DNA from: Candidatus Micrarchaeota archaeon
GTDB lineage: Archaea; Micrarchaeota; Micrarchaeia; Anstonellales; Bilamarchaeaceae
DNA: 64,000 nt
Direction of reading: 5' to 3'
NCBI GenBank assembly: GCA_043827025.1
Contig: JBDRPL010000005.1
Location: 35,569-99,568, forward strand
Below are positions 40,679-61,572 of the stretch, piece by piece; positions within the stretch are counted from its first letter, which is position 1, and each line of letters begins with the position of its first letter. Under the pieces are notes generated by a model, which was not told the origin of the DNA, made no database searches, and was given only the letters and a program-made list of their open reading frames with translations. Position numbers and translations under genes: made by a program.

Positions 40679-42595
40679 ATGAACATTACTCAAAAGATAA
40701 TAAAGGAGCACTTAGTCGAAGGAGAAATGGTTGCTGGGAAGGAAATCGGAATCAAGATAGACCAGACTCTAACCCAGGATGCGACGGGAACAATGGCATA
40801 CCTGGAATTTGAGGCATTGAATATTCCAAGAGCGAAAACCGAATTGTCAGTGAGTTACGTTGACCATAATATGCTTCAAACCGATTTCAAGAATCCGGAT
40901 GATCATTTATACTTACAGTCAATTGCTGCAAAATATGGCATTCTATTTTCAAGGCCTGGGAATGGCATATGCCATCAAGTCCATTTAGAGAGATTCGCAA
41001 GGCCTGGAAGAACATTGATTGGAAGTGATTCCCATACGCCTACTGCAGGAGGTATTGGTTCATTATCTATAGGTGCAGGAGGATTAGATGTTGCACTTGC
41101 AATGGGTGGAGATACCTTTTATTTGAATATGCCTAAAGTAGTTGGCGTAAAACTAACTGGAAAATTAGGTCCATGGACATCTGCAAAGGATGTGGTTCTG
41201 GAGTTATTGAAAAGAGTCACTGTAAAAGGAGGAAAGGGCAAGGTTTACGAGTATTTTGGCCCGGGAACAAAAACATTGTCTGTTGCAGAACGAGCTACAA
41301 TCACAAACATGGGAACAGAAACAGGGGCAACAAGCTCAATTTTCCCTTCTGATGAAATCACAAAAGAGTTCCTGAAATCCCAAAAAAGAGAAAATCAGTG
41401 GATAGAATTGAAGGCGGATTCAGAACAATATGATGAAATAATTGAAATCGATTTGTCTTCAATAGAGCCCTTGATTGCCAAACCACATTCACCAGGAGAG
41501 GTTGTGCCTGTGAAAAAGGTAGAGGGAACAAGAATAAGGCAGGTTATTGTGGGATCATGTACTAATTCATCCTACAAGGATTTGATGATTTTTGCAAAGG
41601 CAATGAAAGGAAAGACAGTTCATCCTGAGGTAAGCCTTTGTGTTTTACCAGGTTCGAGACAGGTCTATCAGGAAATTGCAAGAAATGGCGCATTGGCAGA
41701 CCTTATCAAAGCAGGTGCAAGAATATTGGAATCAGCCTGTGGCCCCTGCATAGGCATGGGACAAGCACCACCATCTGAGAGTGTCACAATAAGGACATTC
41801 AACAGGAATTTCGAAGGAAGATGCGGGACAAAAGATGCAAAGGCATATCTATGTTCTCCGGAAGTTGCAGCAGCATGTGCAATATATGGAGAAATTGCAG
41901 ACCCACGGAAATTAGGTGTATGCCCTGAAATAGAGCCTTCAGCAGGAATTGTTGATGATTCTATGATAATCCTGCCTACAAAGGACGGATCTTCAGTTAA
42001 AATAGTAAAAGGCCCGAACATAAAACCATTGCCTGAGATGAAACCCTTGGAGGACAATATTTCAAAAGAGGTTTTGTTGAAGGTCGGGGACAATATTACA
42101 ACAGACCATATAATGCCTGCGGGCGCACAGATATTGCCATTGCGCTCTAACATCCCGGCAATTTCTGAATTCGTTTACAATTCCGTTGACAAGGACTTCG
42201 TAAAAAGAGCAAAGGAAAAACAAGGAGGAATGATTATCGGCGGCGAAAACTATGGCCAGGGATCTTCAAGGGAACATGCTGCAATTGCTCCTTTATACTT
42301 AGGAATAAAGGCAAAGATAGTGAAATCCTATGCAAGGATACATCTTGCAAATTTAGTTAATTGGGGAATACTGCCTTTGGAATTTGCCGATCCGTCAGAT
42401 TATGACAAGATTGAACAGGGAGACAAATTGGAACTTATGGATATTAAGGAATCATTAAAGAATGGAAAGAACATAAAAGTAAAAAACACAACAAAATCAT
42501 TCGAGTTTGAGGCAAAATATAATTTATCTAAAAGAGACGTTGCAACACTTGTTGCTGGCGGTTCAATTAATTATGTAAAACAAAGACATGGATAA
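40679..42595 (+). CDS. acn: aconitate hydratase (short mitochondrial-type aconitase-family protein)
   Basis: 638 aa; GICHQVHLERFARPGRTLIGSDSHTPTAGGIGSLSIGAGGLDVA matches the aconitase Fe-S ligand region; Cys ligands in GSCTNSSY and ACGPCIGMGQ; swivel domain at the C-terminus. Confidence 0.9.
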   Translation: MNITQKIIKEHLVEGEMVAGKEIGIKIDQTLTQDATGTMAYLEFEALNIPRAKTELSVSYVDHNMLQTDFKNPDDHLYLQSIAAKYGILFSRPGNGICHQVHLERFARPGRTLIGSDSHTPTAGGIGSLSIGAGGLDVALAMGGDTFYLNMPKVVGVKLTGKLGPWTSAKDVVLELLKRVTVKGGKGKVYEYFGPGTKTLSVAERATITNMGTETGATSSIFPSDEITKEFLKSQKRENQWIELKADSEQYDEIIEIDLSSIEPLIAKPHSPGEVVPVKKVEGTRIRQVIVGSCTNSSYKDLMIFAKAMKGKTVHPEVSLCVLPGSRQVYQEIARNGALADLIKAGARILESACGPCIGMGQAPPSESVTIRTFNRNFEGRCGTKDAKAYLCSPEVAAACAIYGEIADPRKLGVCPEIEPSAGIVDDSMIILPTKDGSSVKIVKGPNIKPLPEMKPLEDNISKEVLLKVGDNITTDHIMPAGAQILPLRSNIPAISEFVYNSVDKDFVKRAKEKQGGMIIGGENYGQGSSREHAAIAPLYLGIKAKIVKSYARIHLANLVNWGILPLEFADPSDYDKIEQGDKLELMDIKESLKNGKNIKVKNTTKSFEFEAKYNLSKRDVATLVAGGSINYVKQRHG

Positions 42596-42601
42596 TACTA
42601 G

Positions 42602-43849
42602 GTGAAAAATATGGTGATAAGTGGAGAAAAAATAAAGATGGAGAATGGAAAACTAGTGGTACCCAACATACCTTATATCCCATACATCAAAGGGGACGGA
42701 GTTGGAGAAGACATCTGGCCAGTAGTCCAAAGAATCATTGATGCAGCAGTTGCAAAGGCATATGGAAACACTAACAGGGTGCCGAACAAAGCAATATTTT
42801 GGCTTGAAGCTCCTGCCGGAGATAAGGCATATAAAGAAACCGGCGAATATCTTCCCCAAAACACAGTAGATATGATAAGAGAATACCTAGTTGCAATAAA
42901 GGGTCCTTTAACTACTCCAGTTGGTGGGGGCCACAGATCATTGAATGTAACTATGCGCCAAGTGTTAGACCTATATTGTTGTGTCAGACCTGTCAAATGG
43001 TTCGAGGGGGTTCCAAATCCAATGAAAAATCCTGAGAAATTGAATGTGGTGATTTTCAGGGAAAATACAGAAGATGTATATGCGGGAATCGAATTCAAGG
43101 AAGGCAGCGATGAAGTAAAAAAAGTGATTGACCTGATGTCCAACATGGGCAAGAAGATAAGGCCAGATTCAGGCATCGGAATAAAACCGATTTCAATAAC
43201 TGGAACCAAAAGATTGGTGGAAGCTGCTATTGATTATGCAATAAAATATAGGAAAACTAGAGTGACTTTGATGCACAAGGGAAACATAATGAAATTTACA
43301 GAAGGCGCATTCAGGGAATGGGGTTATGCGGTTGCAAAGGAAAAGTTTCCTGATAAGGTCATAACAGAACAGGAAGTCACGGATAACCACGGAGGAAAAA
43401 TCCCTGAGGGAAAAATAATGATAAATGACAGAATTGCAGACTCAATGTTCCAGCAGGTTTTATTAAGGCCTGATGAATATGAGGTAATTGCCACAACCAA
43501 TCTGAATGGGGATTACATAAGCGATGCATGTGCTGCACAGGTTGGCGGTTTGGGAATTGCTCCTGGCGCAAACATCAATTATAAGACCGGACATGCATTG
43601 TTTGAAGCAACACATGGCACTGCACCAAAGCATGCAGGGCAGGACAAGGTGAATCCAGGCTCTTTGCTTCTTTCAGCAGTCATGATGCTTGATTATATGG
43701 GATGGGAAGAGGCTGCCAAAATGATTGAATCAGCATTTGAAAAGACAATCAACCAAAAGATCGTGACCTACGATTTTGCAAGGCAGATGGAAGGCGCAAC
43801 TGAAGTCAAATGTTCTGAATTTGGCGCGAAAATAATTGAAAATCTTTGA
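42602..43849 (+). CDS. icd: isocitrate dehydrogenase (NADP-type)
   Basis: 415 aa; signature [27 protein letters not shown]. Confidence 0.9.
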
Positions 43850-43881
43850 ATGGGAAACAATGAATAACGAGGGACAATCAC

Positions 43882-45114
43882 ATGGCAAGAAGAAAAATCC
43901 GCGAATACGATGGGCGAAGGCTTTTTGGCGAATACTTTGGAATTCCTAGCGAATCGATCCTAGTTGATTCTTCTACGGATATTGAAGGATTGGGCAAAAC
44001 TCACCCCTGGCTGAATTCAAAAAAACTGGTGGTGAAGCCAGATGTGTTGATGGGGAAAAAAGGCAAGCACAACCTCATTCTCCTAAATGCGGATTTTTCT
44101 GCTGCCAAAGGCTTCATAAAAGAGCACCTCAATAAAGAAATGAAAATCGGGAACATTTCAGGAGTTCTGACACACTTCATAATCCAGCCATTTGTCCCTC
44201 ATCAAAATGAATATTTCGTTTCCATCATGAGCGGAAGGGATGCTGACAAGATATACATCTCTGAAAAAGGAGGGGTTGACATTGAAGAGAACTGGGAAAC
44301 AGTCAAACACATAGATGTTCCTATTGCCGGCCCCTTTCCCAAAGAAGAATTGGCAAAATGCCTTTCTTCATTTGGAAATGAAAAAGATGCAACAACGAAA
44401 TTCATAGAAAAACTTTACCAGTTCTTTGCAGAATATGATTTTTCATACTTGGAGCTAAACCCGTTTTGTTTTGTGGATGGAAAGGCAATTCCATTGGGAT
44501 TTGTTGGAGAGGTGGATGATTGTGCAGAATATAAGGATTATAAGAGATGGGGCAATTTGGCATTTCCCCAGTCCTTTGGCAAGAAACTGACGAAAGAGGA
44601 AGAGTTCATAAAAGACCTGGATTCCAAGACAGGGGCTTCCCTGAAACTTACAATTTTGAATCCAAAGGGCAAGATATGGCCCATGGTCGCAGGAGGAGGC
44701 GCATCAGTTATCTATGCAGACACAATTGTAGATCTTGGATGCGGCAATGAGCTTGCCATATATGGGGAATATTCCGGGGACCCCAATGAAGAAGAAACCT
44801 ATCAGTATGCCAAGACTGTTTTGGACCTGATGACAAGGGAATCAAGAAAAGACGGCAAGGTTCTGCTGATAGGAGGCGGAGTTGCAAATTTCACAGATGT
44901 TGCAAAAACATTCAAAGGCATCATCCGAGCATTGAAGGAATATAAGGAAAAACTAAAGAAAAATAATGTCAAGATATACATCAGAAGGGGCGGACCAAAT
45001 TATGAGGTTGGCCTGGAACTTATGAGAAAACTAGGAGGGGAATTAGGAGTACCTATGGAGGTTTATGGCCCAGAAACCCACATGACAAAGATTGTCGCGT
45101 TAGCTTTGAAGTGA
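43882..45114 (+). CDS. aclB: ATP-citrate lyase, subunit B (ATP-grasp/N-terminal part of ACLY)
   Basis: 410 aa; long blocks colinear with the human ACLY N-terminus: HPWL...LVVKPD, EPFVPH, ASLKLTILNPKGKIWPMVAGGGASVIYADTIVDLG...NELA(I/N)YGEYSG, RRGGPNYEVGL. Confidence 0.9.
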   Translation: MARRKIREYDGRRLFGEYFGIPSESILVDSSTDIEGLGKTHPWLNSKKLVVKPDVLMGKKGKHNLILLNADFSAAKGFIKEHLNKEMKIGNISGVLTHFIIQPFVPHQNEYFVSIMSGRDADKIYISEKGGVDIEENWETVKHIDVPIAGPFPKEELAKCLSSFGNEKDATTKFIEKLYQFFAEYDFSYLELNPFCFVDGKAIPLGFVGEVDDCAEYKDYKRWGNLAFPQSFGKKLTKEEEFIKDLDSKTGASLKLTILNPKGKIWPMVAGGGASVIYADTIVDLGCGNELAIYGEYSGDPNEEETYQYAKTVLDLMTRESRKDGKVLLIGGGVANFTDVAKTFKGIIRALKEYKEKLKKNNVKIYIRRGGPNYEVGLELMRKLGGELGVPMEVYGPETHMTKIVALALK

Positions 45115-45118
45115 TACT

Positions 45119-46942
45119 ATGACCGATTTATTCACAAACAAAACACAGGCATTCATATACAATTTTAAGGCAAACCCTGTGCAGAGAATGCTTGATTTTG
45201 ATTACATCTGCAGAAGAAAAACCCCTAGCATTGCAGGGCTTATCAATCCAGGAGGATCAGGTTTTCACAAAGCATTTTTTGGTGCAACTGAAATCATGCT
45301 TCCCATATATTCAAGCATTGATGCTGCAACAAAAGCTCATCCAAATGCAGATGTGATGGTTAATTTTGCTTCGTTCAGGAGCGCCTACGCATCATCATTG
45401 GAAGCGCTTAACAATACTTCCATAAAGACCGTTGCCATCATAGCCGAGGGGATTCCTGAAAGACTGACAAAGGAATTGATTGCAATAGCAAACAAAAAGA
45501 AGAAATGGATAATCGGGCCTGCAACAGTTGGAGGATTGGCAGCAGGCAAATTCAGGATAGGGAATACTGCAGGCACCATTGACAACATAATCAAATGCAA
45601 GGCTTACAGACCCGGCTCAGTTGGCTTTGTTTCAAAATCAGGAGGTCTTTCCAATGAGATGTTCAATGTCATTGCAAGAACTACTGATGGAATTTATGAA
45701 GGAATTGCAATTGGCGGAGATGCATGCCCAGGCTCCAAATTAATAGACCATATCCTAAGGTATGAAAATAATCCTGCAATCAAAATGATTGTTGCTCTTG
45801 GAGAACTTGGAGGAAATGAGGAATATGAGATCGCCAATGCAGTGAAAGCGAAAAAAATAACCAAACCAATTGTCATGTGGGTTGCAGGAACCTGTGCAAA
45901 TGTTTTCCCAGGGGAAGTGCAGTTCGGCCACGCAGGCGCAAAAAGCGGTAAACAAGAAAATTCAGCAGCTGCCAAGAACAAGGCATTGAAAGAAGCTGGA
46001 GTCATCGTGCCAAATTCATACGAGGATTTTGACCAAAGGATAAAGGAAACGTTTGACAGGTTGAAGAAAGATGGCAAAATAAAGGAAATTGAAGAGCCCG
46101 AGGTTCCAAAATTACCTATGGACTATTTAGAAGCACTGAAAAAAGGAGTGATACGTAAACAAACCAATTTCATCTGCTCAATTTCAGACGATAGGGGGGA
46201 TGAGCCCTATTATGCAGGCATTCCAATGAGCAAAATGATTGAGGATGACTATTCTGTTGGCGAAATAATTTCCTTATTGTGGTTTAAGAAAAGATTGCCA
46301 AAATATGCCACGAAATTCATTGAAACTGTGATGATAATTGCAGCAGATCACGGGCCATGTGTATCAGGTGCCCACAATACAATAATTACTGCAAGGGCAG
46401 GGAAGGACCTGATATCCTCATTATGCTCTGGCTTATTGACAATCGGCCCAAGATTCGGAGGTGCAATTGATGATGCTGCAAGATATTTCAAGCATGCAGC
46501 TGATTCTGGAATGGCTCCTGATGAATTTGTCAGTGAAATGAAGAAAAAGGGCATTAATATCCCTGGAATTGGCCATAGGATAAAATCTGCAAAAAACCCT
46601 GACAAGAGGGTCGAAATACTAAAGGCGTATGCAAAGAAAAACTTCCCCCAGACAAAATACCTTGACTATGCTTTGTCAGTTGAAAAAGAGACGCTGAAAA
46701 AGGCAGACAACCTTATTTTAAATGTGGATGGCTGTATAGGCATTTTATTCGTGGATTTGATGGATGGTTGCGAGGCATTTTCAAAGGAAGAACTTAATTC
46801 AATTGTTGATATAGGCTACCTGAACGGTTTGTTCATCTTGGCAAGATCAATAGGGTTAATGGGCCATGTATTTGACCAAAAGAGGCTGAAACAGACACTC
46901 TACAGGCATCCATGGGATGATGTGTTGTTTATAGACCGTTAA
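45119..46942 (+). CDS. aclA: ATP-citrate lyase, subunit A (CoA-binding and citryl-CoA lyase part)
   Basis: 607 aa; colinear with the ACLY C-terminal half: QRMLDFDYICRR, catalytic-His region GHAGA, IAADHGPCVSGAHNTIITARAGKDLISSL, LYRHPWDDV. Confidence 0.9.
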   Translation: MTDLFTNKTQAFIYNFKANPVQRMLDFDYICRRKTPSIAGLINPGGSGFHKAFFGATEIMLPIYSSIDAATKAHPNADVMVNFASFRSAYASSLEALNNTSIKTVAIIAEGIPERLTKELIAIANKKKKWIIGPATVGGLAAGKFRIGNTAGTIDNIIKCKAYRPGSVGFVSKSGGLSNEMFNVIARTTDGIYEGIAIGGDACPGSKLIDHILRYENNPAIKMIVALGELGGNEEYEIANAVKAKKITKPIVMWVAGTCANVFPGEVQFGHAGAKSGKQENSAAAKNKALKEAGVIVPNSYEDFDQRIKETFDRLKKDGKIKEIEEPEVPKLPMDYLEALKKGVIRKQTNFICSISDDRGDEPYYAGIPMSKMIEDDYSVGEIISLLWFKKRLPKYATKFIETVMIIAADHGPCVSGAHNTIITARAGKDLISSLCSGLLTIGPRFGGAIDDAARYFKHAADSGMAPDEFVSEMKKKGINIPGIGHRIKSAKNPDKRVEILKAYAKKNFPQTKYLDYALSVEKETLKKADNLILNVDGCIGILFVDLMDGCEAFSKEELNSIVDIGYLNGLFILARSIGLMGHVFDQKRLKQTLYRHPWDDVLFIDR

Positions 46943-49623: not shown

Positions 49624-49923
49624 TCATTTCTCTTTCTTCAGCCTTTCTATCTCTTTTCTTGCAGTGCCGCAAACCTTGCTCATTGGATCTGCCTTTAGGC
49701 AATTCTGGCAAATGAATATAGGTTCAATGTCTTTAACCATTTTCTCTGCACTGCCTATTGCCATATTCCCTAGACACTGGGCATTCCCCTTTAGAACTTC
49801 CTCGTGCATATTCCCAACATTCGAATCAGATTCAAAAAAGAGCATCATCTCCTTTCCACAGCAATTGCATTTTACCAAGTAAACATCTCGGCCATATGCT
49901 TTTTCTTTTTGCATGGAATTCAC
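49624..49923 (-). CDS. small zinc-finger protein
   Basis: 99 aa; CNCCGKE...CQNC...C. Confidence 0.4.
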   Translation of the reverse strand: MNSMQKEKAYGRDVYLVKCNCCGKEMMLFFESDSNVGNMHEEVLKGNAQCLGNMAIGSAEKMVKDIEPIFICQNCLKADPMSKVCGTARKEIERLKKEK

Positions 49924-53017: not shown

Positions 53018-54313
53018 TCATTTCGGCTTGAGATAGCCCCATTTCTCCAAGGCTTCTCTTAGTTCTACACACTTATTGGCCTTTTCTTTTAAGCTTTTGC
53101 TTTCCATTGTTGCTTCAATAGCCTGCATAGTTGCCTTTGCACCTGCACGTGTCCCTTTTGGATGGCCATGGATTCCCCCACTTACAAGCAACACAAACTC
53201 ATTTCCATAAATTTTCATGACATCTGGTACCAACCCTGGATGCAACCCGCCAGATGAAACTGGAAAGGCTGATTTTATGTGGCCCCAATCCTGTTCTAAT
53301 AGCATATTCTGGACAGGCTTTGTCTTTGCATCACGCAAAAGATCTGCAAGTGCTTCAACCTCGCCTTTTGCAGCAGTTAATTTGCCAACTTCTGTTCCTG
53401 AATGAATTTGGCTTACTCCGATCAATCGCATCATCTTTGCCAAGAACTGCATTGTCAATCCATGTTTTGGATTCCTGTCAAATGCAGCATGCATTGCACG
53501 ATGTGCATGAATAGCCAAACCAAGATCTGAACAATAATCCCGCATTGTTTGGACGCCAGCATATCCTGCAATTACAACATCAATCATGCAATAATTCCAG
53601 CCATTGTCTGCAAGCAGTTTTGCCCGCTTTTTCATTACTTCTGTCTCACTAGTTATGTTTATGAACGCGGATTTCACTTCTCCTGTTTCTTTTTCAGCCT
53701 TTTCCCTCATTTTTGTCATGAGATTAACGCGATCCTCGAACCTATTGAATTTCTGCGAAGTTAAATTCTCATCATCCTTTACGAAATCGAATCCTCCCAT
53801 CCAGGTTTCATAACCAATTTCTGCGTGTTCTTTTGCACTGAAACCAATCTTTGGCTTTGGCACTGCGCCTGTCAAAGGCCGCTTATAGACTTTCATCATT
53901 TTCCTAAGGCCATCTATCCCAAATTTAGGTCCTTTAAAATATTTTATATATTCTTTTGGCAAAGTCGCATCTATTAATCTAAGATTCTTCACAGCCTTCA
54001 TTCCGAAGATATTGCCTGCGATTCCGCTGAGAAGCTGGCAGGCGTTTCCTTCTTCCCAAAGGTCTAACGGATAGGATACCTTGAGGTAATTCCCATTGAT
54101 CTCGAATGCAGTTGCCTCTAAAGATTTCATTCTTGGGGGCAATCTCTGGAGAGTTGTCCATGTTCCTGTTGAACTCTCAGATGCGATTCTTCCTGCAACT
54201 TCCTTGAGGCCCATTCCCTTATCTGGCTCAAAATAAAACAAACAGATTATCTCGTCTTTAGACGGCTTGTATTTCAAATCCACAAATTCATCATACCAGT
54301 CGATCTTCGCCAT
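53018..54313 (-). CDS. rbcL: ribulose-1,5-bisphosphate carboxylase large subunit, form III (archaeal type)
   Basis: 431 aa; ESSTGTWTT, carbamylated-Lys motif GGFDFVKDDEN, IHAHRAMHAAFDR, SGGLHPG. Confidence 0.85.
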   Translation of the reverse strand: MAKIDWYDEFVDLKYKPSKDEIICLFYFEPDKGMGLKEVAGRIASESSTGTWTTLQRLPPRMKSLEATAFEINGNYLKVSYPLDLWEEGNACQLLSGIAGNIFGMKAVKNLRLIDATLPKEYIKYFKGPKFGIDGLRKMMKVYKRPLTGAVPKPKIGFSAKEHAEIGYETWMGGFDFVKDDENLTSQKFNRFEDRVNLMTKMREKAEKETGEVKSAFINITSETEVMKKRAKLLADNGWNYCMIDVVIAGYAGVQTMRDYCSDLGLAIHAHRAMHAAFDRNPKHGLTMQFLAKMMRLIGVSQIHSGTEVGKLTAAKGEVEALADLLRDAKTKPVQNMLLEQDWGHIKSAFPVSSGGLHPGLVPDVMKIYGNEFVLLVSGGIHGHPKGTRAGAKATMQAIEATMESKSLKEKANKCVELREALEKWGYLKPK

Positions 54314-54361: not shown

Positions 54362-55129
54362 TTAAATCTTGATTTTATTTAAATCGCAGTATTTTTTGAC
54401 AATTTCCAGTTCATTTTCATTCAATCTTTTGTTTCCCGCATAAAAGAAGGATTCATGGAAACCTGAAAAATCGTATAAAAAGATATCATAGCCTTCTTTT
54501 GATTTTTGACAAATAATCCTAAAAACAACATCCCCCTGATGATTCTGTTCAATGGATAAAAGATCGTTCTTCTTAGATGCTCGATAGGTGTACTTATCTG
54601 CGTATTTATTGTTGGGATCCTTGAATTCTTGAATAATTGGATCACCGTCAGCAGTTTCCTTATAATTCAGGGTTTCCGTGTCAAAGTTTTCTTTGATATA
54701 ATCTCCAAGCTCATTTATAGGAATGGACTGGTTGACCTTGATTTCAATGATTCCTTCCTTTTCATTCTTTTCAATAACCTTCTTGGGAATACATTCAACT
54801 ATGCGCGTCTTGGAATCAAGATACTCCTCTTCAGAAGATTCAGGATAAAAAAGCGCCCAGAACCTTTCAGGCAATCTTATGCGAAAAGGATTTTTTACTT
54901 TTATTCTGCAGGTAGCCCCTTGCATAGGAGAGTTTTCACTAAACTGTCCCTTCTTGTCCAACCAGATCATATTTGTAAATCCAGTCATTACTGCCCAGTA
55001 AGGTCGTTTGTATTCATCTAGGAACTTGCCCCTATTGCCTTCACAGCACCAGTTCAGGGTTTCAAAAGAGATCTCAGAGTCAACTATTTGTTTGTCAGCC
55101 ATTTTTGATCCAACTTCCTTTTTGTACAT
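54362..55129 (-). CDS. hypothetical protein
   Basis: 255 aa; no family recognised. Confidence 0.4.
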   Translation of the reverse strand: MYKKEVGSKMADKQIVDSEISFETLNWCCEGNRGKFLDEYKRPYWAVMTGFTNMIWLDKKGQFSENSPMQGATCRIKVKNPFRIRLPERFWALFYPESSEEEYLDSKTRIVECIPKKVIEKNEKEGIIEIKVNQSIPINELGDYIKENFDTETLNYKETADGDPIIQEFKDPNNKYADKYTYRASKKNDLLSIEQNHQGDVVFRIICQKSKEGYDIFLYDFSGFHESFFYAGNKRLNENELEIVKKYCDLNKIKI

Positions 55130-55134
55130 TCAGT

Positions 55135-55815
55135 TCAATCGATAACTTTCTTTTCCCTTAATATATTCAACTTTTGGCCATCATTGTTCCCTATGAGAAT
55201 GGATTGTATCCTTATGAAAACATCCTTTGCATTCATCCTAGAATTATTCTCGGGATTTTTAAGTGCAATATCAAGAAGCTGATCCACCCATTTACCAAAA
55301 TCCTTGCTTTTTGAAACCAGCTTGGATAATGAATAAGAAATCGAATTCCTTGTCGAGTTGTACTGTATTCCTGGCGTACACAGGTATTTTATTATCGAAT
55401 CTATCGCTTTTTCATCGCCAAGGTTACCAAGAGCCTGGCACGCTGCTGATTTTATATCTTCGTTCTCTCCACTATCCTCAACAAGCTTGATGAGTTGTGG
55501 CACAAGATGAGGCATGCTTATCAGAGGACTTAGCCTAAGAGAGATTACATACAGGGCGACCTTCCTATCTTCAAAGACCGTATTCGATTTATCTATTCTC
55601 TTGGCCAATTTATTTATCTGCTTAGAAAGATCATTGTTCTTTGAGATCATCTGCAATGCATTGGCAGAACGTTCGGTGATCTGCCAGTCCGAACCCTCAA
55701 GAAGCCCGAACAGGATTTCGATGGTGTTTTGGTCTCCTTTTGTCAACTCTTTGACCTCTGCTTCCGTACCATTCAAGAGTATTTCCTTTATCTTTTCCCC
55801 AGTGAATTTTACCAT
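55135..55815 (-). CDS. HEAT/PBS-lyase-type repeat protein
   Basis: 226 aa; repeated helical pairs with ...AA..ALG.LGDEKAIDSLIK... pattern. Confidence 0.6.
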   Translation of the reverse strand: MVKFTGEKIKEILLNGTEAEVKELTKGDQNTIEILFGLLEGSDWQITERSANALQMISKNNDLSKQINKLAKRIDKSNTVFEDRKVALYVISLRLSPLISMPHLVPQLIKLVEDSGENEDIKSAACQALGNLGDEKAIDSIIKYLCTPGIQYNSTRNSISYSLSKLVSKSKDFGKWVDQLLDIALKNPENNSRMNAKDVFIRIQSILIGNNDGQKLNILREKKVID

Positions 55816-55885: not shown

Positions 55886-56089
55886 ATGACAGTTGTAAAG
55901 GTAATTGAATTATTGGGGATTTCAGAAAAGAGCTTTGAAGATGCAATTGAAACAGCAATAAAAAAGGCAAACAAGTCACTAAAGCACATCCATGGTGCAG
56001 ACATCATAGGGCAAAAGGTAAAGGTGAATGACAAGGGAAAGATTGTTGAATATCGAGTAGATATGAAAGTGGCATTCAAGCTTGATTAG
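55886..56089 (+). CDS. dodecin (small flavin-binding protein)
   Basis: 67 aa; KVIELLGISEKSFEDAIETAIKKANKSLKHIHGADIIGQKVKVNDKGKIVEYRVDMKVAFKLD matches the dodecin family along its whole length. Confidence 0.8.
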   Translation: MTVVKVIELLGISEKSFEDAIETAIKKANKSLKHIHGADIIGQKVKVNDKGKIVEYRVDMKVAFKLD

Positions 56090-56597
56090 CCTTTCTTTTA
56101 AGCAAAATCTCTGTCAATTCCCTCATCATTTGTTCCTCAACATCCAAAAGCATGGCCATAAGCTTCTGATTAATTTTTGGAATGCTTATATTCATCACAA
56201 TATAACCATTTTTATATGCAAACGAAGGACGATGTTTGCCGTCGCTTTTCAAAAACTCAAAATTTACATTTAGATTCTCCCGAATTACATCTTGATCCAT
56301 TTTGTCCATAGGTCCAAAATTATGTAAAAAATAGGCATCGAAATTTGATATCAGTTCATATCTTTGGCCCGTCAAAGTAAGAGGATTTGCCTTGACATTG
56401 ATCAAAAATCCATTATGGAAAACAAGTATCAGCTTGCTCTTGTTCGGGTTGACATTAAATCTTTCGATCTTAGCCCCAATGTTCTTTAATATCAAAACAT
56501 CCTCGTCATTCTGCCCGCTTTTTACTACATGGAATGCAAAACTGGCAAGAAATATGAAAACCAGAAACAAGAACAAAGTTATGGCAAGCTCAATCAT
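56076..56597 (-). CDS. hypothetical membrane-anchored protein
   Basis: 173 aa; N-terminal TM helix. Confidence 0.4.
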   Translation of the reverse strand: MIELAITLFLFLVFIFLASFAFHVVKSGQNDEDVLILKNIGAKIERFNVNPNKSKLILVFHNGFLINVKANPLTLTGQRYELISNFDAYFLHNFGPMDKMDQDVIRENLNVNFEFLKSDGKHRPSFAYKNGYIVMNISIPKINQKLMAMLLDVEEQMMRELTEILLKRKANQA

Positions 56598-56601
56598 CTT
56601 T

Positions 56602-59600
56602 TCACTTATATTCTCTGAATTCCTCTATATTTAATTCTTTGTTTCTCAGCTGCTTCAGAGCATTTAGAAGCTGGATAGCTGTTTCCAGATTAGTTATGCA
56701 TGGAATGCCTTTTTCAATTGAAGCGCGCCTTATCTTGAATCCGTCGGTTGCGGATCGTCCACCGCGTCTTGGAGTGTTGATTATCAGATCGATCTTGCAT
56801 TCCGATATGATATCTATTATGTCTGGCTTCTGATCCCCTATTTTTGGAATGGAAGTTGCGAGTTTCAGGCTTTTTGCAGTTCCAGGTGTTGCATATATCA
56901 TATACCCAAGATCTTGTAACAGGGATTTCAGCTTCTGTGCATTCACCTTGTCCAAATCATTCAAACTTACTATACAATCGCCCCTTTCCTTTATTCGGAT
57001 TCCGGCTGCAAGCAATGCCTTGTAGTATGCGATTTCAAAAGAATGGCCAATACCCATGGTCTCTCCAGTTGATTTCATTTCCGGACCCAAGGTAATGTCT
57101 GCTCCGACGATTTTAAGAAAAGGGAAAACTATTGATTTGACTGCATAGCCTTTCTGCTTGTTTGCAGATTCCAAACTAAATTCAGACAAATGATGGCCAG
57201 CCATTACTTTAGTGGCGATTTTTGCCATTGGAATCCCAATTGCCTTGCTTAGGAATGGAACAGTACGAGATGCACGAGGATTGGCTTCAAGGCAATAAAT
57301 GATTCCATCCTTCACAACATATTGAACATTGATCATTCCGACTATTCCAAGAGCTTCTGCCATATCCTGAGTGTATTTAGTAATTGTTTTCTTGTCACTA
57401 TCGGTCAACCTAATTGACGGAACAACGATATTTGCATCTCCTGAATGAACTCCAGCAGGCTCAATGTGCTCCATTATCCCGCCAATGAATAATTGAGAGC
57501 CATCAAAAATTGCATCCACTTCACATTCAATTGCATTGTCAAGATATTTATCTATCAGAATAGGCTTCTTTTCGCTTATGTCAACAGCTTCTCGCATGTA
57601 TTTCTTCAATTCTTCGTCATCGTATACGATTGCCATAGCCCTTCCCGCAATCACATAACTTGGCCTTACTACAATGGGATAAGTTATCCGTTTAGCAAGT
57701 ACAAGCGCCTGCTCTTCCTTGAATGCAATCCCATGGTCTGGCTGTGGAATCTTCAGCTTTTTCATTAGTTGGCTGAATTTATCCCTGTCTTCTGCAACAT
57801 CAAGGCCCTTTGGGCTTGTCCCAATTACCTTGAAACCATGTTCTGTAAGTGAATCCACAAGATTAAGGCTGGTCTGGCCTCCGAATTGGACGATTACGCC
57901 ATCAGGTTTTTCAAGCTCACAGATATTAAGAACATCTTCTGCAGTAAGAGGCTCGAAATACAATCTATCAGATGAATCAAAATCTGTTGAAATGGTTTCT
58001 GGATTGTTGTTTATGACAATGCTTTCGATATCCATCTCCTTTAATGCAAAGGCTGCATGCGAACAGCAATAATCGAACTCTATGCCCTGACCGATTCTGA
58101 TTGGACCAGAACCAATGACAATTGCTTTTCGCTTTTTGCTGGGAATTACCTCATTCTCCTGCTCATAAGTTGAATAATAGTATGGAGTCACTGCTTCGAA
58201 TTCGCCTGCACAGCTGTCAACTATTTTATATGTTGGGATGATGCCGTGTTTGTGCCTAAGCGTTCGAACACCTTCCTCGTCCTTGCTGACAAGTTTGGCA
58301 ATTTGCTTGTCTGAAAATCCCAAACGTTTCGCTTTTCTCAGCAGATCTCCGCTAGCACCATTTTGCTTCAATTCGGATTCCATTTTGGCGATGTTCTCCA
58401 ATTTATAAAGAAACCACTTGGAGATATTTGTGATTTGATTTAATTTTTCAACACTCTCGCCTTTTCTAAGGAGTTCAAAGATGGCAAACAGCCGGATATC
58501 CGTTGCAGGATTCAGATGTTTATAAGGATCTTCAATCTTTGGAGGTTTTATGTCAAGGCTTCTCAACGCCTTTAACAAGGATTCTTCAAATGTCCTTCCA
58601 ATAGACATTGTTTCTCCCGTTGATTTCATTTGCGTTCCTATGGTTCGGTCAGACATCTCGAACTTGTCAAAAGGCCACCTTGGTATTTTTGTAACGATAT
58701 AATCAAGAGATGGCTCAAAGGCTGCATTTGTTCCTGTGATTGCATTTTTGATTTCATATAAATCATAGCCAAGTGCGATCTTTGTCGCGACTCTTGCAAT
58801 CGGATAGCCCGTTGCTTTTGACGCAAGCGCAGAAGACCTAGAAAGCCTGGGATTGATTTCAATTACTGCAAACTCCCCTGTCTTTTGATTGAACGAGAAT
58901 TGGACATTGCACGAACCTTTGATTCCGATTTCATCCACTATCCTTAATGCTGCATTTCTGAGCATCTGATGATCTTTATCATTTAATGTTTGGGAAGGTG
59001 CAACTACAATGCTTTCACCAGTGTGGATACCCATAGGATCGAAGTTTTCCATATTGCAGATGATGATCGAATTGCCTCTTGCATCTCTTACAACCTCATA
59101 TTCGAATTCTCCCCAACCTAAAACAGATTTTTCTACCAACGCCTCATGGTTTGCACTTAATCTAAAAGCAAGCTCAAGTATCCGCTTCAGGTCTGATTTG
59201 TTGTATGCAATTCCGCCCCCTGTTCCACCTAAGGTGAATGATGGTCGGATTATGAGCGGATAGCCTATCCTGTCAGCAAATTCAAGGGCCTCATCATAGT
59301 TCTTGATTGTTCTTCCAGGAAGGATTGGAACTCCTATCTTATCCATGGCTTCGTTGAATGACTCCCTGCCTTCTGCGCGTTGAATTGATTGTGCACCAGT
59401 CCCAAGGAATTCAACTCCGTATTTGGCAAGTATGCCTGCGCCATGAAGTTCCAATGACAAATTAAGAGCAGTCTGTCCACCTACTGTTGCAAGTATCCCT
59501 TCTGGTTTTTCCTTTGCAATTATCTTTTCAAGCACTTCAATAGTCAATGGCTCTATGTAAATGCGGTCAGCAGTTTCAGGATCTGTTTGGATGGTTGCAG

Positions 59601-59742
59601 GATTAGAGTTGACTAATACTACTATAATACCTTCTTCGCGCAATACCTTGCAGGCCTGTGTCCCAGAGTAATCAAATTCAGCACTTTGTCCGATGACAAT
59701 CGGCCCTGAACCTATTACAAGGACTTTTTTGGGTTTTTTCAT
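56602..59742 (-). CDS. carB: carbamoyl-phosphate synthase large subunit
   Basis: 1046 aa; duplicated ATP-grasp halves, MGS-like C-terminus; typical CarB N-terminus KKVLVIGSGPIVIGQSAEFDYSGTQA. Confidence 0.95.
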   Translation of the reverse strand: MKKPKKVLVIGSGPIVIGQSAEFDYSGTQACKVLREEGIIVVLVNSNPATIQTDPETADRIYIEPLTIEVLEKIIAKEKPEGILATVGGQTALNLSLELHGAGILAKYGVEFLGTGAQSIQRAEGRESFNEAMDKIGVPILPGRTIKNYDEALEFADRIGYPLIIRPSFTLGGTGGGIAYNKSDLKRILELAFRLSANHEALVEKSVLGWGEFEYEVVRDARGNSIIICNMENFDPMGIHTGESIVVAPSQTLNDKDHQMLRNAALRIVDEIGIKGSCNVQFSFNQKTGEFAVIEINPRLSRSSALASKATGYPIARVATKIALGYDLYEIKNAITGTNAAFEPSLDYIVTKIPRWPFDKFEMSDRTIGTQMKSTGETMSIGRTFEESLLKALRSLDIKPPKIEDPYKHLNPATDIRLFAIFELLRKGESVEKLNQITNISKWFLYKLENIAKMESELKQNGASGDLLRKAKRLGFSDKQIAKLVSKDEEGVRTLRHKHGIIPTYKIVDSCAGEFEAVTPYYYSTYEQENEVIPSKKRKAIVIGSGPIRIGQGIEFDYCCSHAAFALKEMDIESIVINNNPETISTDFDSSDRLYFEPLTAEDVLNICELEKPDGVIVQFGGQTSLNLVDSLTEHGFKVIGTSPKGLDVAEDRDKFSQLMKKLKIPQPDHGIAFKEEQALVLAKRITYPIVVRPSYVIAGRAMAIVYDDEELKKYMREAVDISEKKPILIDKYLDNAIECEVDAIFDGSQLFIGGIMEHIEPAGVHSGDANIVVPSIRLTDSDKKTITKYTQDMAEALGIVGMINVQYVVKDGIIYCLEANPRASRTVPFLSKAIGIPMAKIATKVMAGHHLSEFSLESANKQKGYAVKSIVFPFLKIVGADITLGPEMKSTGETMGIGHSFEIAYYKALLAAGIRIKERGDCIVSLNDLDKVNAQKLKSLLQDLGYMIYATPGTAKSLKLATSIPKIGDQKPDIIDIISECKIDLIINTPRRGGRSATDGFKIRRASIEKGIPCITNLETAIQLLNALKQLRNKELNIEEFREYK

Positions 59743-59752
59743 TTTTCATCAC

Positions 59753-60136
59753 TCAGATGATGATCTCATTCTCGCATTTCACACATTTTATCTTCTGGCC
59801 TTTTAGATCTGCAATTTTATCCCACACATCCCCAAAAAGAGCATATGTCACTTCTTTTTTTTCTTGCTTCTTCTCAAGACTGTAGCTTCCTGAGCAACCA
59901 ATGTCAAAAACAATCGGCGTACCGCATTTCAAGCACATCCTGCCTGTCAAATCGTTTTCAACGCATTTGCAAACCTCTGCCTTCTTCTTGCAGAAGACGC
60001 AGGTCTTGACAAGCTTGCCGTTCTTGCATTTCGAACAGGCCTTTGCCGAATCAGCGAAGTACTCATTGCATTTATCGCAGATATACCAAATTCTCCTTGT
60101 TGCCTCGTTTTGCAAAGCTTCTGTATTAATGTCCAT
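59753..60136 (-). CDS. multi-CxxC zinc-ribbon protein encoded between carA and carB (long paralog)
   Basis: 127 aa; five C-x2-C pairs; C-terminal EKKQEKKEVTYALFGDVWDKI...IKCVKCENEI is paralogous to the next ORF. Confidence 0.5.
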   Translation of the reverse strand: MDINTEALQNEATRRIWYICDKCNEYFADSAKACSKCKNGKLVKTCVFCKKKAEVCKCVENDLTGRMCLKCGTPIVFDIGCSGSYSLEKKQEKKEVTYALFGDVWDKIADLKGQKIKCVKCENEIII

Positions 60137-60138
60137 GT

Positions 60139-60369
60139 TTACACCATTTCTTTCCTAAGAATTGAAATAACATATTCAAAACCGCACTTTACACATCTAA
60201 GCGGATGAGTAGTTGGATCAACAAACCAGTCTACAGACCCCAACGGAATATAGTTTACTTCTTTTTTTGCGCATTTCTTTTCTAATTCTTTGTTTGGTTC
60301 AGAATTATCATCTACGAATATAGGTATTCCGCATTTTTTGCACTTAAATTCCTCAATCATTGCCACCAT
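60139..60369 (-). CDS. CxxC zinc-ribbon protein encoded between carA and carB (short paralog)
   Basis: 76 aa; CKKCG...CAKKEVNYIPLGSVDWF...LRCVKCGFEYV. Confidence 0.5.
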   Translation of the reverse strand: MVAMIEEFKCKKCGIPIFVDDNSEPNKELEKKCAKKEVNYIPLGSVDWFVDPTTHPLRCVKCGFEYVISILRKEMV

Positions 60370-60381
60370 ACCATAACACCA

Positions 60382-61506
60382 TTATTTTAACAGTTTAATG
60401 AACTCATCAAACAAATACTTAGAATCATGCGGTCCAGCTGTTGCTTCTGGATGATACTGAACCGAGAATATTTGTTTGTCTAAATGTTTCATACCTTCAT
60501 TGGTTTTGTCATTTAAATTCTGATGCGTTAATTCAAAACCTTTTGGAACTTCTTTGACTGCAAATCCATGATTTTGCGTTGTGATTACCACTTTCTTTCT
60601 AGTCAAGTCGATGACTGGTTGATTGCAACCTCTATGGCCAAACTTAAGTTTAAAAGTCTCAGAACCAAATGCATGGCCAATCAACTGATGGCCAAGACAG
60701 ATTGCCATGATAGGATAGTCCTTGTCAGCAAGATTACGAATCACTTTATGTGCATGAGTCAATATCTTTGGATCTCCTGGGCCATTTGAAAGCATGACAC
60801 CATCAGGTTCGTATTGCCGTATCTGTTCACTCGTATAAAATGAAGGGACTACAATAACTTTCAAGCCACGCGCCACAAGTTCATTTGCAATATTCCTCTT
60901 GTATCCATAATCAATCAGAACTACCTTTCCTTTTTTGTTTTCTCCAAACTCCAAAGGCTGTTTTGTTGTTACTTTTTCAACGAAATCAACTGATGAGTAA
61001 TCGAATTTGAGTTTCTTTTGAAGTGAACTGATGTCCAAGTCTCCATCATAGGTGGAAATTATGGCTGGGACGACTCCTTTTGACCGAATATGTCTAACTA
61101 GAAAACGAGTATCAATTCCAGTTATTCCAGGAACATCAAAATCCTTCAGGAACTGGTCAATTGATTGAAATGCATCTTTATGTTCGTACTTTTCGCAGAT
61201 TTCCCTTGTGCAAAGCCCTTCAACATGGATTTTATCGCTCTCAAAATCAGTTTTATTTATGCCGTAATTGCCAATCATCGGATAAGTGGAAATCAGTATC
61301 TGGCCGGCATAGCTTGGATCTGTCAGACTTTCCTGATAGCCAATCATAGAAGTATTAAAGACTAGTTCACCTATCCGCGTGGTCTTTGCACCAAACCCAT
61401 TTCCATGGATGATTGTGCCGTCTGCCAACAGTAACACTGATTTCATCATTAATACTCCAGTAAGCCGAGAACTATGTTCTCGATTGACGGAATTTAATTC
61501 CATCAA
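60382..61506 (-). CDS. carA: carbamoyl-phosphate synthase small subunit (glutamine amidotransferase)
   Basis: 374 aa (real start probably at the internal MKSVLLL); GATase triad region AICLGHQL and HPE. Confidence 0.9.
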   Translation of the reverse strand: MMELNSVNREHSSRLTGVLMMKSVLLLADGTIIHGNGFGAKTTRIGELVFNTSMIGYQESLTDPSYAGQILISTYPMIGNYGINKTDFESDKIHVEGLCTREICEKYEHKDAFQSIDQFLKDFDVPGITGIDTRFLVRHIRSKGVVPAIISTYDGDLDISSLQKKLKFDYSSVDFVEKVTTKQPLEFGENKKGKVVLIDYGYKRNIANELVARGLKVIVVPSFYTSEQIRQYEPDGVMLSNGPGDPKILTHAHKVIRNLADKDYPIMAICLGHQLIGHAFGSETFKLKFGHRGCNQPVIDLTRKKVVITTQNHGFAVKEVPKGFELTHQNLNDKTNEGMKHLDKQIFSVQYHPEATAGPHDSKYLFDEFIKLLK

Positions 61507-61572
61507 GAACTAGAACAATATCTCTCAACGAAAGTTTATATATTTAGCGCATGAATAAGATTTGGCGAGGCT

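What the first reader, a model, noticed from the sequence alone, without database searches (positions are those of the whole stretch)
59753..60369. Two paralogous multi-CxxC zinc-ribbon genes inserted between carA and carB
carA and carB are almost always adjacent. Here two small Cys-rich ORFs (76 and 127 aa) that share C-terminal sequence blocks sit between them with 3-13 nt gaps, so they are co-transcribed with carbamoyl-phosphate synthetase. This is an unusual operon insertion. It may encode lineage-specific regulatory or assembly subunits, or an anti-sigma/zinc-finger-like regulator captured by the operon.
Basis: seen in the sequence. Interest (0 to 1): 0.55.

Follow-up and report, generated by a model that had tools for sequence, protein, structure and literature searches.

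The report
Zinc-ribbon mini-genes inside the carAB operon
Two small zinc-binding proteins encoded between the two subunits of carbamoyl-phosphate synthetase in a Micrarchaeota genome are real, conserved members of an undescribed, lineage-restricted protein family that keeps turning up inside the same biosynthetic operon in relatives, but what they do is still not known.

Summary
On the minus strand lie carA (60382-61503), a 76-aa ORF (60139-60369), a 127-aa ORF (59753-60136) and carB (56602-59742), separated by 12, 2 and 10 nt. The two small proteins share a 60-residue zinc-ribbon module (43% identity, E 1e-11).

I call this module domain B. It defines a small, un-annotated family found only in Micrarchaeota (Bilamarchaeaceae) sequences. 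No Pfam, NCBIfam, PDB or fold match is significant. The 127-aa protein adds a second Cys-rich module, domain A.

- In eight car- or transcarbamylase-linked lineages (carA 59-100% identical where a carA is present), at least one B gene sits after carA or directly before an OTCase-like transcarbamylase.
- All other genes inserted there have turned over.
- B genes also lie between ADH synthase and DHQ synthase II in shikimate operons.
- The 127-aa gene evolves under purifying selection as strong as carA (dN/dS 0.046 against 0.042).

My best reading, which is inferred, is that these are small protein-binding adaptor or assembly subunits for the flanking enzymes. A nucleic-acid-binding regulator or a pathway-independent hitchhiker remains plausible.

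"carA and carB are almost always adjacent" is overstated, and "anti-sigma" does not apply to archaea. Moderate interest.

The parts
60382..61503 (-). carA, the glutamine-hydrolysing carbamoyl-phosphate synthase small subunit and first gene of the unit. An alternative TTG start lies at 61506.
   Evidence: Pfam CPSase_sm_chain plus GATase. TIGR01368 scores 471 bits against a cut-off of 307.
61535..61545 (-). TATA-like box AAATATATAAA about 32 nt upstream of the carA ATG. It is the candidate single archaeal promoter of the unit.
   Evidence: It is the only match to TATA-like patterns on the minus strand between 55.8 and 61.6 kb. The sequence is shown. Its function is inferred, not shown.
60139..60369 (-). 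zr76, a 76-aa single-module zinc-ribbon protein (domain B: CKKCG ... KKEVNY ... CVKCG). It lacks the fifth 'GC' cysteine that most family members have.
   Evidence: ORF. It is 43% identical to the C-terminal half of zr127. The B-domain HMM scores 86 bits, E 2e-25. The AF2 model has pLDDT 72 and a zinc-ribbon topology with one inserted helix. A GGTG motif lies at 60377-60380, 7 nt before the ATG.
59753..60136 (-). zr127, a 127-aa two-module zinc-ribbon protein. Domain A (about 59948-60097) has eight Cys. Domain B (59756-59944) has four zinc-binding Cys plus one more.
   Evidence: ORF. The orthologue P0001 is 94% identical. dN/dS is 0.046. The AF2 model has pLDDT 75. A GGTG motif lies at 60142-60145, 5 nt before the ATG.
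56602..59742 (-). carB, the carbamoyl-phosphate synthase large subunit, full length with the MGS-like allosteric domain.
   Evidence: NF003671 scores 1512 bits against a cut-off of 599. Pfam domains are listed.
56076..56597 (-). orf173, an unknown protein with a hydrophobic N-terminus. It starts 4 nt after the carB stop and is probably the last gene of the unit.
   Evidence: ORF and gene call. No Pfam family matches. The first T6 tracts on this strand lie at 56326-56331 and 55960-55965.

Best explanation
WHAT IT IS (about 0.9 confident). zr76 and zr127 are expressed, selected protein-coding genes. They belong to an undescribed, modular family of zinc-ribbon mini-proteins restricted to Micrarchaeota of the Bilamarchaeaceae kind.
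- Module B is about 60 aa: CxxCG(I)P(I)...(G)C...EKxxKKE(I/V)NY...C(V)KCG(T)EF. It has one Zn site and one inserted Lys-rich helix.
- B occurs alone (zr76), in tandem fusions (BB, BBB), or fused to module A (zr127; eight more Cys, probably two more Zn sites) or to module C.
- Module C is itself often fused to HEAT repeats.
- These genes are embedded, with spacing typical of translational coupling, in the carbamoyl-phosphate operon. The ancestral layout was probably carA-[B]n-transcarbamylase-carB. The window's subclade lacks the transcarbamylase at this site.
- In some genomes they sit between ADH synthase and DHQ synthase II of the archaeal shikimate operon.

HOW IT MOST LIKELY WORKS (inferred, about 0.35-0.4). 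They are small protein-binding adaptor or assembly subunits, made in step with the flanking enzymes. They would stabilise or tether those enzymes: CarA/CarB and, where present, the transcarbamylase; ADH synthase and DHQ synthase II. Tandem and fused copies would give multivalency. This resembles the way the DUF35 zinc-ribbon protein scaffolds the archaeal thiolase/HMG-CoA synthase complex, or the way the PyrI zinc domain clamps ATCase catalytic trimers. Both operon contexts pass on labile intermediates (carbamoyl phosphate; aspartate semialdehyde and ADH), where tethering would pay.

Shown: gene reality, family, synteny, selection. Inferred: zinc binding, co-transcription, any physical contact with the enzymes.
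For: Gene reality:
- dN/dS is 0.046 for zr127, against 0.042 for carA, in the window versus L001 comparison.
- The four zinc-binding Cys and the K/Y of the KKExNY motif are invariant across 13 domain-B sequences.
- SD-like GGTG motifs precede both genes.
- GC content matches the flanks.

Family and restriction:
- The exhaustive profile search found 15 hits. The word-indexed profile search found 13, and every source name among them is Micrarchaeota or Bilamarchaeaceae.

Conserved linkage to the car operon while neighbouring genes turn over:
- L001: carA-AB-C.HEAT.
- L061: carA-B-TCase.
- L064: carA-DUF3800-BB-B-TCase-C.
- L065: carA-B-C.HEAT-carB.
- L066: BB-B-TCase.
- L068-71: carA-BB-TCase-carB.
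- L077/78: carA-CB-B-TCase-carB.
- The domain map comes from the HMM scan, and the carA identities of 59-92%.

Other points:
- Start/stop overlaps of 4-14 nt with the downstream TCase fit coupled translation.
- A second context also lies at an enzyme-enzyme junction: DeoC-type ADH synthase, then B(-B), then DHQS.
- Fusions to HEAT-repeat partners, and Ank or HEAT neighbours, point to protein-protein scaffolding.
- Only one TATA-like box lies upstream of carA, and there is no strong T tract inside the unit.
Against: - No interaction, expression or zinc data exist.
- AF2 confidence is only moderate, pLDDT 72-75.
- A B gene in a car operon (L078) is about 88% identical at the DNA level to one in a shikimate operon (L073), and the similarity stops at the ORF ends. 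That is hard to square with a partner-specific adaptor. It hints at a generic function or at cassette-like movement.
- One relative with 76% identical carA (L004) has no B in its car operon, and L001 lacks zr76, so neither gene is indispensable there.
- B proteins are mildly basic (pI 8.6-9.5), which also fits nucleic-acid binding.
- A BBB protein sits among unannotated, possibly mobile genes.
Confidence: 0.4

Rival explanations
1. Operon-embedded regulator. The B (and A) zinc ribbons bind DNA or the operon's own mRNA and tune transcription or translation of the biosynthetic operons that carry them. This would resemble small archaeal zinc-finger regulators such as Brz, or operon-encoded regulators such as PyrR and LysM.
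For: - The helix is Lys-rich (EKKxKKKE) and pI is 8.6-9.5 in most members.
- Zinc ribbons are frequent in archaeal transcription and translation factors, and the weak Pfam and PDB similarities are to TFIIB, TFIIS, RPB, eS27 and eL40-type ribbons.
- The same protein in two operons is easier to explain for a factor that recognises a shared nucleic-acid feature.
Against: - zr76 itself is neutral (pI 6.55).
- There is no effector-binding domain to sense pyrimidines, arginine or aromatic amino acids.
- Copy number and fusion state vary freely (B, BB, BBB, AB, CB), which is unusual for a site-specific regulator.
- Fusion partners are HEAT scaffolds rather than HTH or RHH domains.
- No similarity passes any family threshold.
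Confidence: 0.22
2. Pathway-independent hitchhikers. B-type genes are small general-purpose or even semi-selfish zinc-ribbon cassettes that duplicate and settle at gene junctions of well-expressed operons. There they get transcription and coupled translation for free, and their function has nothing to do with carbamoyl phosphate.
For: - An ORF-bounded copy about 88% identical at the DNA level occurs in car and shikimate operons. L076 and L078 come from the same metagenome.
- Presence and absence are polymorphic even between close relatives: zr76 is absent from L001, and no B is present in the L004 car operon.
- Tandem duplication and fusion are rampant.
- BBB occurs in an unannotated region with weak DnaD-like and HicB-like hits.
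- Several unrelated small CxxC ORFs occur elsewhere in the window.
Against: - Only two operon types were seen among about 11 independent contexts, and eight of them involve carA or the transcarbamylase. Random settling should scatter more widely.
- Retention next to carA or the TCase persists down to 59% carA identity while every other insert was replaced.
- Purifying selection is as strong as on carA.
- No repeats or mobility genes flank the copies.
Confidence: 0.28
3. Spurious ORFs or decaying remnants. The Cys-rich reading frames are chance ORFs or pseudogenised fragments in an expanded carA-carB spacer.
For: Word-indexed searches with each single protein found only one near-identical hit apiece. 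No curated family matches.
Against: - dN/dS is 0.046, with 33.5 synonymous against 10.5 non-synonymous differences.
- Distant homologues at 33-47% identity keep all zinc ligands.
- SD-like motifs are correctly spaced.
- The AF2 models fold into zinc ribbons.
Confidence: 0.02

Closest known systems
DUF35 (zinc ribbon plus OB fold) scaffold of the archaeal acetoacetyl-CoA thiolase/HMG-CoA synthase complex. The founding work is known to me from memory (Voegeli et al. 2018). A tripartite HMGS/ACAT/DUF35 complex is also described in PMC12960953.
   Same: A small Cys4 zinc-ribbon protein encoded in an operon with two consecutive enzymes of one pathway. It acts (there) as a non-catalytic subunit that holds them together. 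Weak, non-significant Foldseek hits go to DUF35 ribbons (6ok1_B, 3irb_B).
   Different: There is no OB-fold domain and no significant sequence or fold similarity. The partner enzymes are different. Physical association is not shown here. B modules multiply and fuse, which DUF35 does not.
PyrI, the regulatory chain of aspartate transcarbamoylase: its C-terminal zinc domain (Pfam PF02748)
   Same: A Cys4 zinc domain of about 50-70 residues that binds a transcarbamylase catalytic subunit and is encoded next to it. In relatives, B genes overlap the start of a transcarbamylase gene.
   Different: - PF02748 was not among the family matches listed by the Pfam scans.
- Cys spacing is CxxC...(44-46)...CxxC, not Cx4C...(23)...CxxC.
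- The neighbouring transcarbamylase scores as OTCase-like, not ATCase.
- The window has no transcarbamylase in the operon at all.
- B also sits in shikimate operons.
LysW/ArgW amino-group carrier protein
   Different: There is no conserved acidic C-terminal tail ending in Glu. No LysX/ArgX-type ligase or other Lys/Arg carrier-pathway genes lie nearby. B proteins are basic rather than acidic. The scores are far below significance.
Haloarchaeal one-domain zinc-finger mu-proteins with CPxCG motifs (Brz, PMC2253796; Haloferax set, PMC6562870)
   Same: Archaeal proteins under 70-80 aa built around two CxxCG knuckles. They are often next to the genes they affect and mostly have unknown mechanisms.
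   Different: No detectable sequence relationship. The knuckles are CKKCG and CVKCG, without the Pro. The phylum is different. Embedding between enzyme genes, modular A/B/C fusions and tandem arrays are not described for those proteins.

Membership tests
Glutamine-dependent carbamoyl-phosphate synthetase operon (carA/carB) | The small subunit has CPSase_sm_chain plus class-I GATase domains. The large subunit has duplicated ATP-grasp halves plus an MGS-like domain. Both score above curated cut-offs. | tested here: met
   TIGR01368 scores 471 bits (cut-off 307) and NF003671 scores 1512 bits (cut-off 599).
LysW/ArgW amino-group carrier protein | A conserved acidic C-terminal extension ending in Glu (EDWGE-type), to which the substrate is ligated. 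| tested here: not met
   C-termini are variable and non-acidic...EYVISILRKEMV...ENEIII...TEFEV...TEFKI...KIHDRK.
LysW/ArgW amino-group carrier protein | Encoded with a LysX/ArgX RimK-type ligase and LysZ/Y/J/K-type enzymes. | tested here: not met
   Neighbours are carA, carB, an OTCase-like TCase, HEAT/Ank proteins or shikimate enzymes.
LysW/ArgW amino-group carrier protein | The globular zinc-ribbon domain matches Pfam PF21344 or the LysW fold. | tested here: inconclusive
PyrI (ATCase regulatory chain) zinc domain | A match to the PyrI_C model (PF02748) and Cx4C...CxxC ligand spacing. | tested here: not met
   PF02748 did not appear in the Pfam scan of zr76 and zr127 at E<=1, nor among the 25 most-matched families of the 14-member scan. 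Both knuckles are CxxC, 44-46 residues apart.
PyrI (ATCase regulatory chain) zinc domain | Encoded next to pyrB (the ATCase catalytic chain). | tested here: not met
   No transcarbamylase was found in the window (tblastn). In relatives the adjacent enzyme scores best as OTCase (270-277 bits) rather than ATCase (166-169 bits), and falls below both cut-offs.
DUF35 scaffold proteins | A zinc ribbon followed by an OB-fold domain (DUF35_N plus OB_aCoA_assoc). | tested here: not met
   No such Pfam hits. The AF2 models show only ribbon strands and short helices. Foldseek hits to DUF35 chains have E 0.8-1.0.
DUF35 scaffold proteins | Forms a stable complex with the enzymes encoded beside it. | not testable with these tools
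   This needs co-purification or multimer modelling. Only the analogous gene arrangement is seen here.
Archaeal small zinc-finger mu-proteins (CPxCG type) | At most about 70-80 aa, with one domain built on two C(P)xCG knuckles. | tested here: met
   zr76 is 76 aa with CKKCG and CVKCG. Family members of 62-69 aa have the same knuckles. This is a descriptive class, not a homology family.
   The sequences have no HxxxCxxC motif. The organism is an archaeon (source names; taxonomy), and archaea have no sigma factors (established knowledge).

The most novel reading that the evidence does not exclude
Modules A, B and C, together with their HEAT and Ank partners, form a previously unknown metabolon-building kit of Micrarchaeota. 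It would consist of multivalent zinc-ribbon connectors, encoded at the junctions between consecutive enzyme genes. They would physically couple CarA/CarB/transcarbamylase, and ADH synthase/DHQ synthase II, to channel labile intermediates. The connectors would be copied as ORF-sized cassettes from one operon to another.
Probability: 0.2. Interest if true: 0.75.

Novelty: new variant of a known kind. Interest (0 to 1): 0.5.

Why it matters
If the adaptor reading is right, these mini-proteins would be a compact, genetically portable way of assembling enzyme complexes in genome-reduced DPANN archaea. They would add a non-catalytic subunit to one of the best-studied enzymes of central nitrogen metabolism.

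Even without a mechanism, the result has three uses:
- It defines three new small-protein modules (A, B, C) that current databases leave blank.
- It gives a clear synteny signature for finding them.
- It provides a case where a small ORF between two subunits of a textbook enzyme is demonstrably under strong selection.

It also corrects the premise. Separation of carA and carB is common in some lineages, so the insertion as such is not the remarkable part. The recurrent identity of what is inserted is.

Tried and rejected
1. Spurious ORFs: rejected by dN/dS and conserved ligands.
2. Recent tandem duplication of one gene: rejected. zr76 is 38% identical to the B module of zr127 but 40-44% identical to B-only genes of other lineages.
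3. Foreign island: rejected. GC is 0.35-0.43, like the flanks, and there are no viral fold or PHROG signals for the proteins themselves.
4. PyrI zinc domain, LysW and DUF35 membership: defining features are not met.
5. Anti-sigma factor: not applicable to archaea.
6. Sequence search of solved structures: best E 0.24, meaningless.
7. P0003 (2162 aa, 25 'stretches') and P0012 from the exhaustive search are repeat or low-complexity artefacts, not relatives.
8. The metagenome scan with the broad B alignment failed for lack of a conserved stretch.
9. The afdb50 fold library was unavailable.
10. Cluster look-up gave no organism names for the stand-alone A-module proteins, so their genomic context remains unknown apart from a 719-nt contig.
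11. A search for further A or B copies in the 64-kb window found none.
Full report
**1. The observation**

The ORF list and the raw sequence show four genes in a row on the minus strand:
- carA, 60382-61506 from a TTG. The public gene call starts at the ATG at 61503.
- A 76-aa ORF, 60139-60369, here called zr76.
- A 127-aa ORF, 59753-60136, here called zr127.
- carB, 56602-59742.

The gaps are 12, 2 and 10 nt. A fifth ORF, orf173 (56076-56597), follows carB after 4 nt.

carA and carB are unambiguous. TIGR01368 scores 471 bits against a cut-off of 307, and NF003671 scores 1512 bits against 599. The two small proteins are paralogous over one module: 43% identity over 60 residues, E 1e-11.

**2. 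The organism**

A protein identical to zr76 is named by NCBI 'hypothetical protein [Candidatus Micrarchaeota archaeon]'. The nearest carA in the species-representative genome set is a Bilamarchaeaceae MAG at 76% identity. That family belongs to Micrarchaeia, order Anstonellales.

**3. Are they real genes?**

An orthologue of zr127 (P0001) occurs on two metagenome contigs, with 94% amino-acid and about 88% DNA identity. Nei-Gojobori counting gives 33.5 synonymous and 10.5 non-synonymous differences. That is dN/dS 0.046, against 0.042 for carA in the same pair of sequences. The gene is therefore under purifying selection as strong as its enzyme neighbour.

Both small genes have a GGTG core 5-7 nt before the ATG. 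This is the centre of the archaeal Shine-Dalgarno consensus GGAGGTGA, a point I take from established knowledge, since the 16S rRNA of this organism was not available. GC content matches the flanks.

On this strand the only TATA-like element between 55.8 and 61.6 kb is AAATATATAAA at 61545-61535, about 32 nt upstream of carA. No run of six or more T occurs until inside orf173. Co-transcription of carA-zr76-zr127-carB(-orf173) is therefore the natural inference, but no transcript data were available.

**4. What family?**

Neither protein matches any Pfam or NCBIfam model above threshold. The only hits are sub-threshold matches to generic zinc-ribbon models.

An exhaustive HMM search of 1.84 billion representatives, using a profile of the two proteins, found 15 hits at E <= 1e-3. 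Two of them, P0003 and P0012, are repeat artefacts. The others fall into two groups:
- Proteins of 62-69 aa that align with zr76 and with residues 63-127 of zr127. I call this module B.
- Proteins of 73-79 aa that align with residues 14-73 of zr127. I call this module A.

A profile search of the 5.8-billion-protein collection added more B members. Every source name among them is Micrarchaeota or Bilamarchaeaceae.

Module B has four invariant Cys in two CxxC knuckles. Most members (not zr76) have a fifth Cys in a 'GC' motif. It also carries a conserved KKE(I/V)NY motif. B occurs singly, as BB (P0007, P0016), as BBB (P0005) and as AB (zr127).

Context reading turned up a third module, C (CxIC...CPxCxTYY...HRF). 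It occurs fused to B, fused to HEAT repeats, or alone.

**5. Structure**

AlphaFold2 with the small family alignments gives moderate models: zr76 at pLDDT 72 and zr127 at pLDDT 75. Module B is a zinc ribbon with one inserted Lys-rich helix. Module A is a second Cys-rich unit.

The structure and sequence comparisons all came back non-significant:
- Foldseek against PDB and against viral models gives nothing better than E 0.16.
- A profile search of PDB sequences has a best E of 0.24.

The fold is a generic zinc ribbon, and no specific relative is known.

**6. Genomic context in relatives: the key result**

The domain map comes from the HMM scan, and carA identities.

| Locus | carA identity to window | Arrangement |
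|---|---|---|
| Window | 100% | carA-B-AB-carB-orf173 |
| L001 | 92% | carA-AB-C.HEAT (contig ends) |
| L004 | 76% | carA-287-aa unrelated ORF-carB |
| L065 | 66% | carA-B-C.HEAT-carB |
| L068-71 | 61% | carA-BB-TCase-carB |
| L077/78 | 59% | carA-CB-B-TCase-carB |
| L061 | 59% | carA-B-TCase |
| L064 | 59% | carA-DUF3800-BB-B-TCase-C-Ank |
| L066 | no carA on contig | BB-B-TCase-HEAT-like |

'TCase' is a transcarbamylase that scores best as OTCase but falls below the curated cut-offs: 270-277 bits against 306. It has HPLP where OTCases have HCLP, and it lacks the SMG loop.

In seven of the eight relatives at least one B module stays in the operon, while everything else inserted there (A, C, HEAT, DUF3800, the 287-aa ORF) differs from lineage to lineage. 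The B gene often overlaps the start of the TCase gene by 4-14 nt. The likely ancestral order is carA-[B]n-TCase-carB. The window's subclade has no TCase at this site, and none was found in the 64 kb.

**7. A second context**

In other Bilamarchaeaceae contigs, one or two B genes (P0009; P0017 plus P0018) sit between a DeoC-family gene and DHQS. By operon content these are the archaeal ADH synthase and DHQ synthase II. The surrounding operon is a long aspartate-kinase-to-chorismate shikimate operon. One of those contigs (L075) comes from the same MAG as L004, whose car operon has no B.

The B gene of the L078 car operon is about 88% identical in DNA to the shikimate-operon gene P0017, and the similarity stops at the ORF boundaries. 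L078 and a P0017/P0018 contig (L076) come from the same metagenome.

A BBB protein lies among unannotated ORFs with weak DnaD-like and HicB-like similarities.

The family is therefore not a dedicated CPSase subunit in the strict sense, and its genes move or are copied between operon junctions.

**8. History of the pair in the window**

zr76 is 38% identical to the B module of zr127, but 40-44% identical to B-only genes in other lineages. The two are old paralogues, not a fresh tandem duplicate.

zr76 is absent from L001, where carA is followed after 19 nt by zr127. Similar ATGGTGT or GGGTGT ribosome-site sequences precede both genes. They would allow loss or gain by short-repeat recombination. 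This last point is my inference.

**9. Control for the premise**

Among the 57 carA loci returned by the genome scan, Firmicutes-type loci have carB about 20 nt after carA. About 30 Bacteroidales loci have 3.2-3.7 kb between them, filled in the one locus inspected by three genes on the other strand. Every Micrarchaeota locus has 0.6-1.9 kb inserted. Separation of carA and carB as such is not rare. What is notable is the recurrent identity of the insert.

**10. Mechanism**

Shown: the genes are real and selected. The family is lineage-restricted. The genes are embedded at enzyme-enzyme gene junctions in two biosynthetic operons, with copy-number and fusion variation.

Inferred: zinc binding (one site in zr76, three in zr127), co-transcription, and function.

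I rank the readings as follows.

(a) Non-catalytic adaptor or assembly subunits for the flanking enzymes, about 0.4.
- For: junction position with coupled translation; multivalent repeats; fusion to HEAT scaffolds; both contexts involve labile intermediates; retention in the car operon across deep divergence.
- Against: near-identical copies in two operons; dispensability in L004 and L001; no structural or interaction evidence.

(b) Pathway-independent hitchhiker cassettes, about 0.28.
- For: ORF-bounded copies; polymorphism between relatives; the BBB protein in a possibly mobile region.
- Against: only two operon types were seen, with strong retention and strong selection.

(c) Nucleic-acid-binding regulator, about 0.22.
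- For: the basic helix, and the frequent role of zinc ribbons in archaeal information processing.
- Against: no sensor domain; free variation of copy number; zr76 is neutral.

(d) Spurious ORFs, about 0.02.

**11. Comparison with known systems**

By working principle, the closest analogues are the DUF35 scaffold of the archaeal thiolase/HMG-CoA synthase complex and the PyrI zinc domain of ATCase. By genomic habit (a small zinc ribbon inside amino-acid operons), the closest is LysW. By description, the closest are the haloarchaeal CPxCG mu-proteins (PMC2253796, PMC6562870).

Membership in each homology family was tested, and defining features were not met:
- No OB fold, so not DUF35.
- PF02748 was not among the Pfam family matches listed, and the Cys spacing is wrong, so not PyrI.
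- No acidic C-terminal tail or LysX neighbour, so not LysW.

**12. Verdict**

It is a new, modular, lineage-specific zinc-ribbon family with a conserved operon signature. Its function is unproven, the premise of exceptional carA/carB adjacency is overstated, and the family is not CPSase-specific. I rate the novelty as a new variant of a known kind (small archaeal zinc-ribbon accessory proteins). Interest is 0.5.

Noticed in passing
L078 5190-6063; L068 7381-8262; L064 4140-4976; L066 460-1341: The transcarbamylase that sits between carA and carB in relatives is atypical. It scores best as OTCase (270-277 bits) but below the curated cut-off of 306, and well above ATCase (166-169 bits). It has HPLP where OTCases have HCLP, and it lacks the SMG ornithine loop. 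Its second substrate is therefore uncertain.
   Followed up: partly
L001 1551-2327; L065 4671-5960; L064 5002-5274; L078 4549-4986: There is a third undescribed Cys module, C (DCxICxDxPD ... CPxCxTYY ... HRF). It recurs in the same operons: fused to HEAT repeats, fused to module B, or alone. It is not present in the window.
   Followed up: partly
L078 5001-5189 versus L073 6733-6924: A B-module gene in a car operon and one in a shikimate operon are about 88% identical in DNA. The similarity ends at the ORF boundaries, which suggests recent copying of an ORF-sized cassette between operons. L078 and L076, which carries the shikimate version, come from the same metagenome.
   Followed up: partly
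window 40679-46942: Aconitase, isocitrate dehydrogenase and both ATP-citrate-lyase-type genes (citrate-binding/ATP-grasp, and CoA-ligase/citrate-synthase) lie in a row. That is an unexpected amount of citrate-cycle machinery for a DPANN-type archaeon.
   Followed up: no
window 53018-54313 and 54362-55815: A RuBisCO large-chain gene (presumably form III) lies downstream of a HEAT-repeat protein (226 aa) and an unknown 255-aa protein. All three are on the same strand as the car unit.
   Followed up: no
window 56076-56597: orf173 starts 4 nt after the carB stop. It has a hydrophobic N-terminus and no family match, and it appears to belong to the same transcription unit.
   Followed up: partly
window 6792-6959 (+), 34995-35267 (+), 49624-49923 (-): Three further small ORFs carry two CxxC motifs and do not overlap large ORFs. 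They are unrelated to modules A and B by HMM. Small zinc-ribbon genes appear to be common in this genome.
   Followed up: no
L014 7056-10536, and about 30 other Bacteroidales loci (L015-L059): In Bacteroidales, carA and carB are separated by about 3.3 kb. In the locus inspected, the gap holds three genes on the opposite strand, so the two subunits are not co-transcribed there.
   Followed up: partly
L005-L060 (genome scan with window carA): Apart from one Bilamarchaeaceae MAG (76%), all confirmed carA relatives returned were bacterial (42-47% identity). The scan is pattern-based, so this does not by itself show a bacterial origin of the gene.
   Followed up: no
window 8541-8631 and 27838-27898: A 12/24-nt periodic repeat lies inside the ORF at 8536-9024. 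A 32-nt unit repeated 1.9 times lies in the spacer between the SAM synthetase gene and an AAA_14/DUF4143 gene.
   Followed up: no
L067 3558-7147: The triple-B protein P0005 lies among ORFs with no Pfam hits. Two neighbours give weak PHROG matches, one DnaD-like helicase loader and one HicB-like, so this may be a mobile or viral region.
   Followed up: partly
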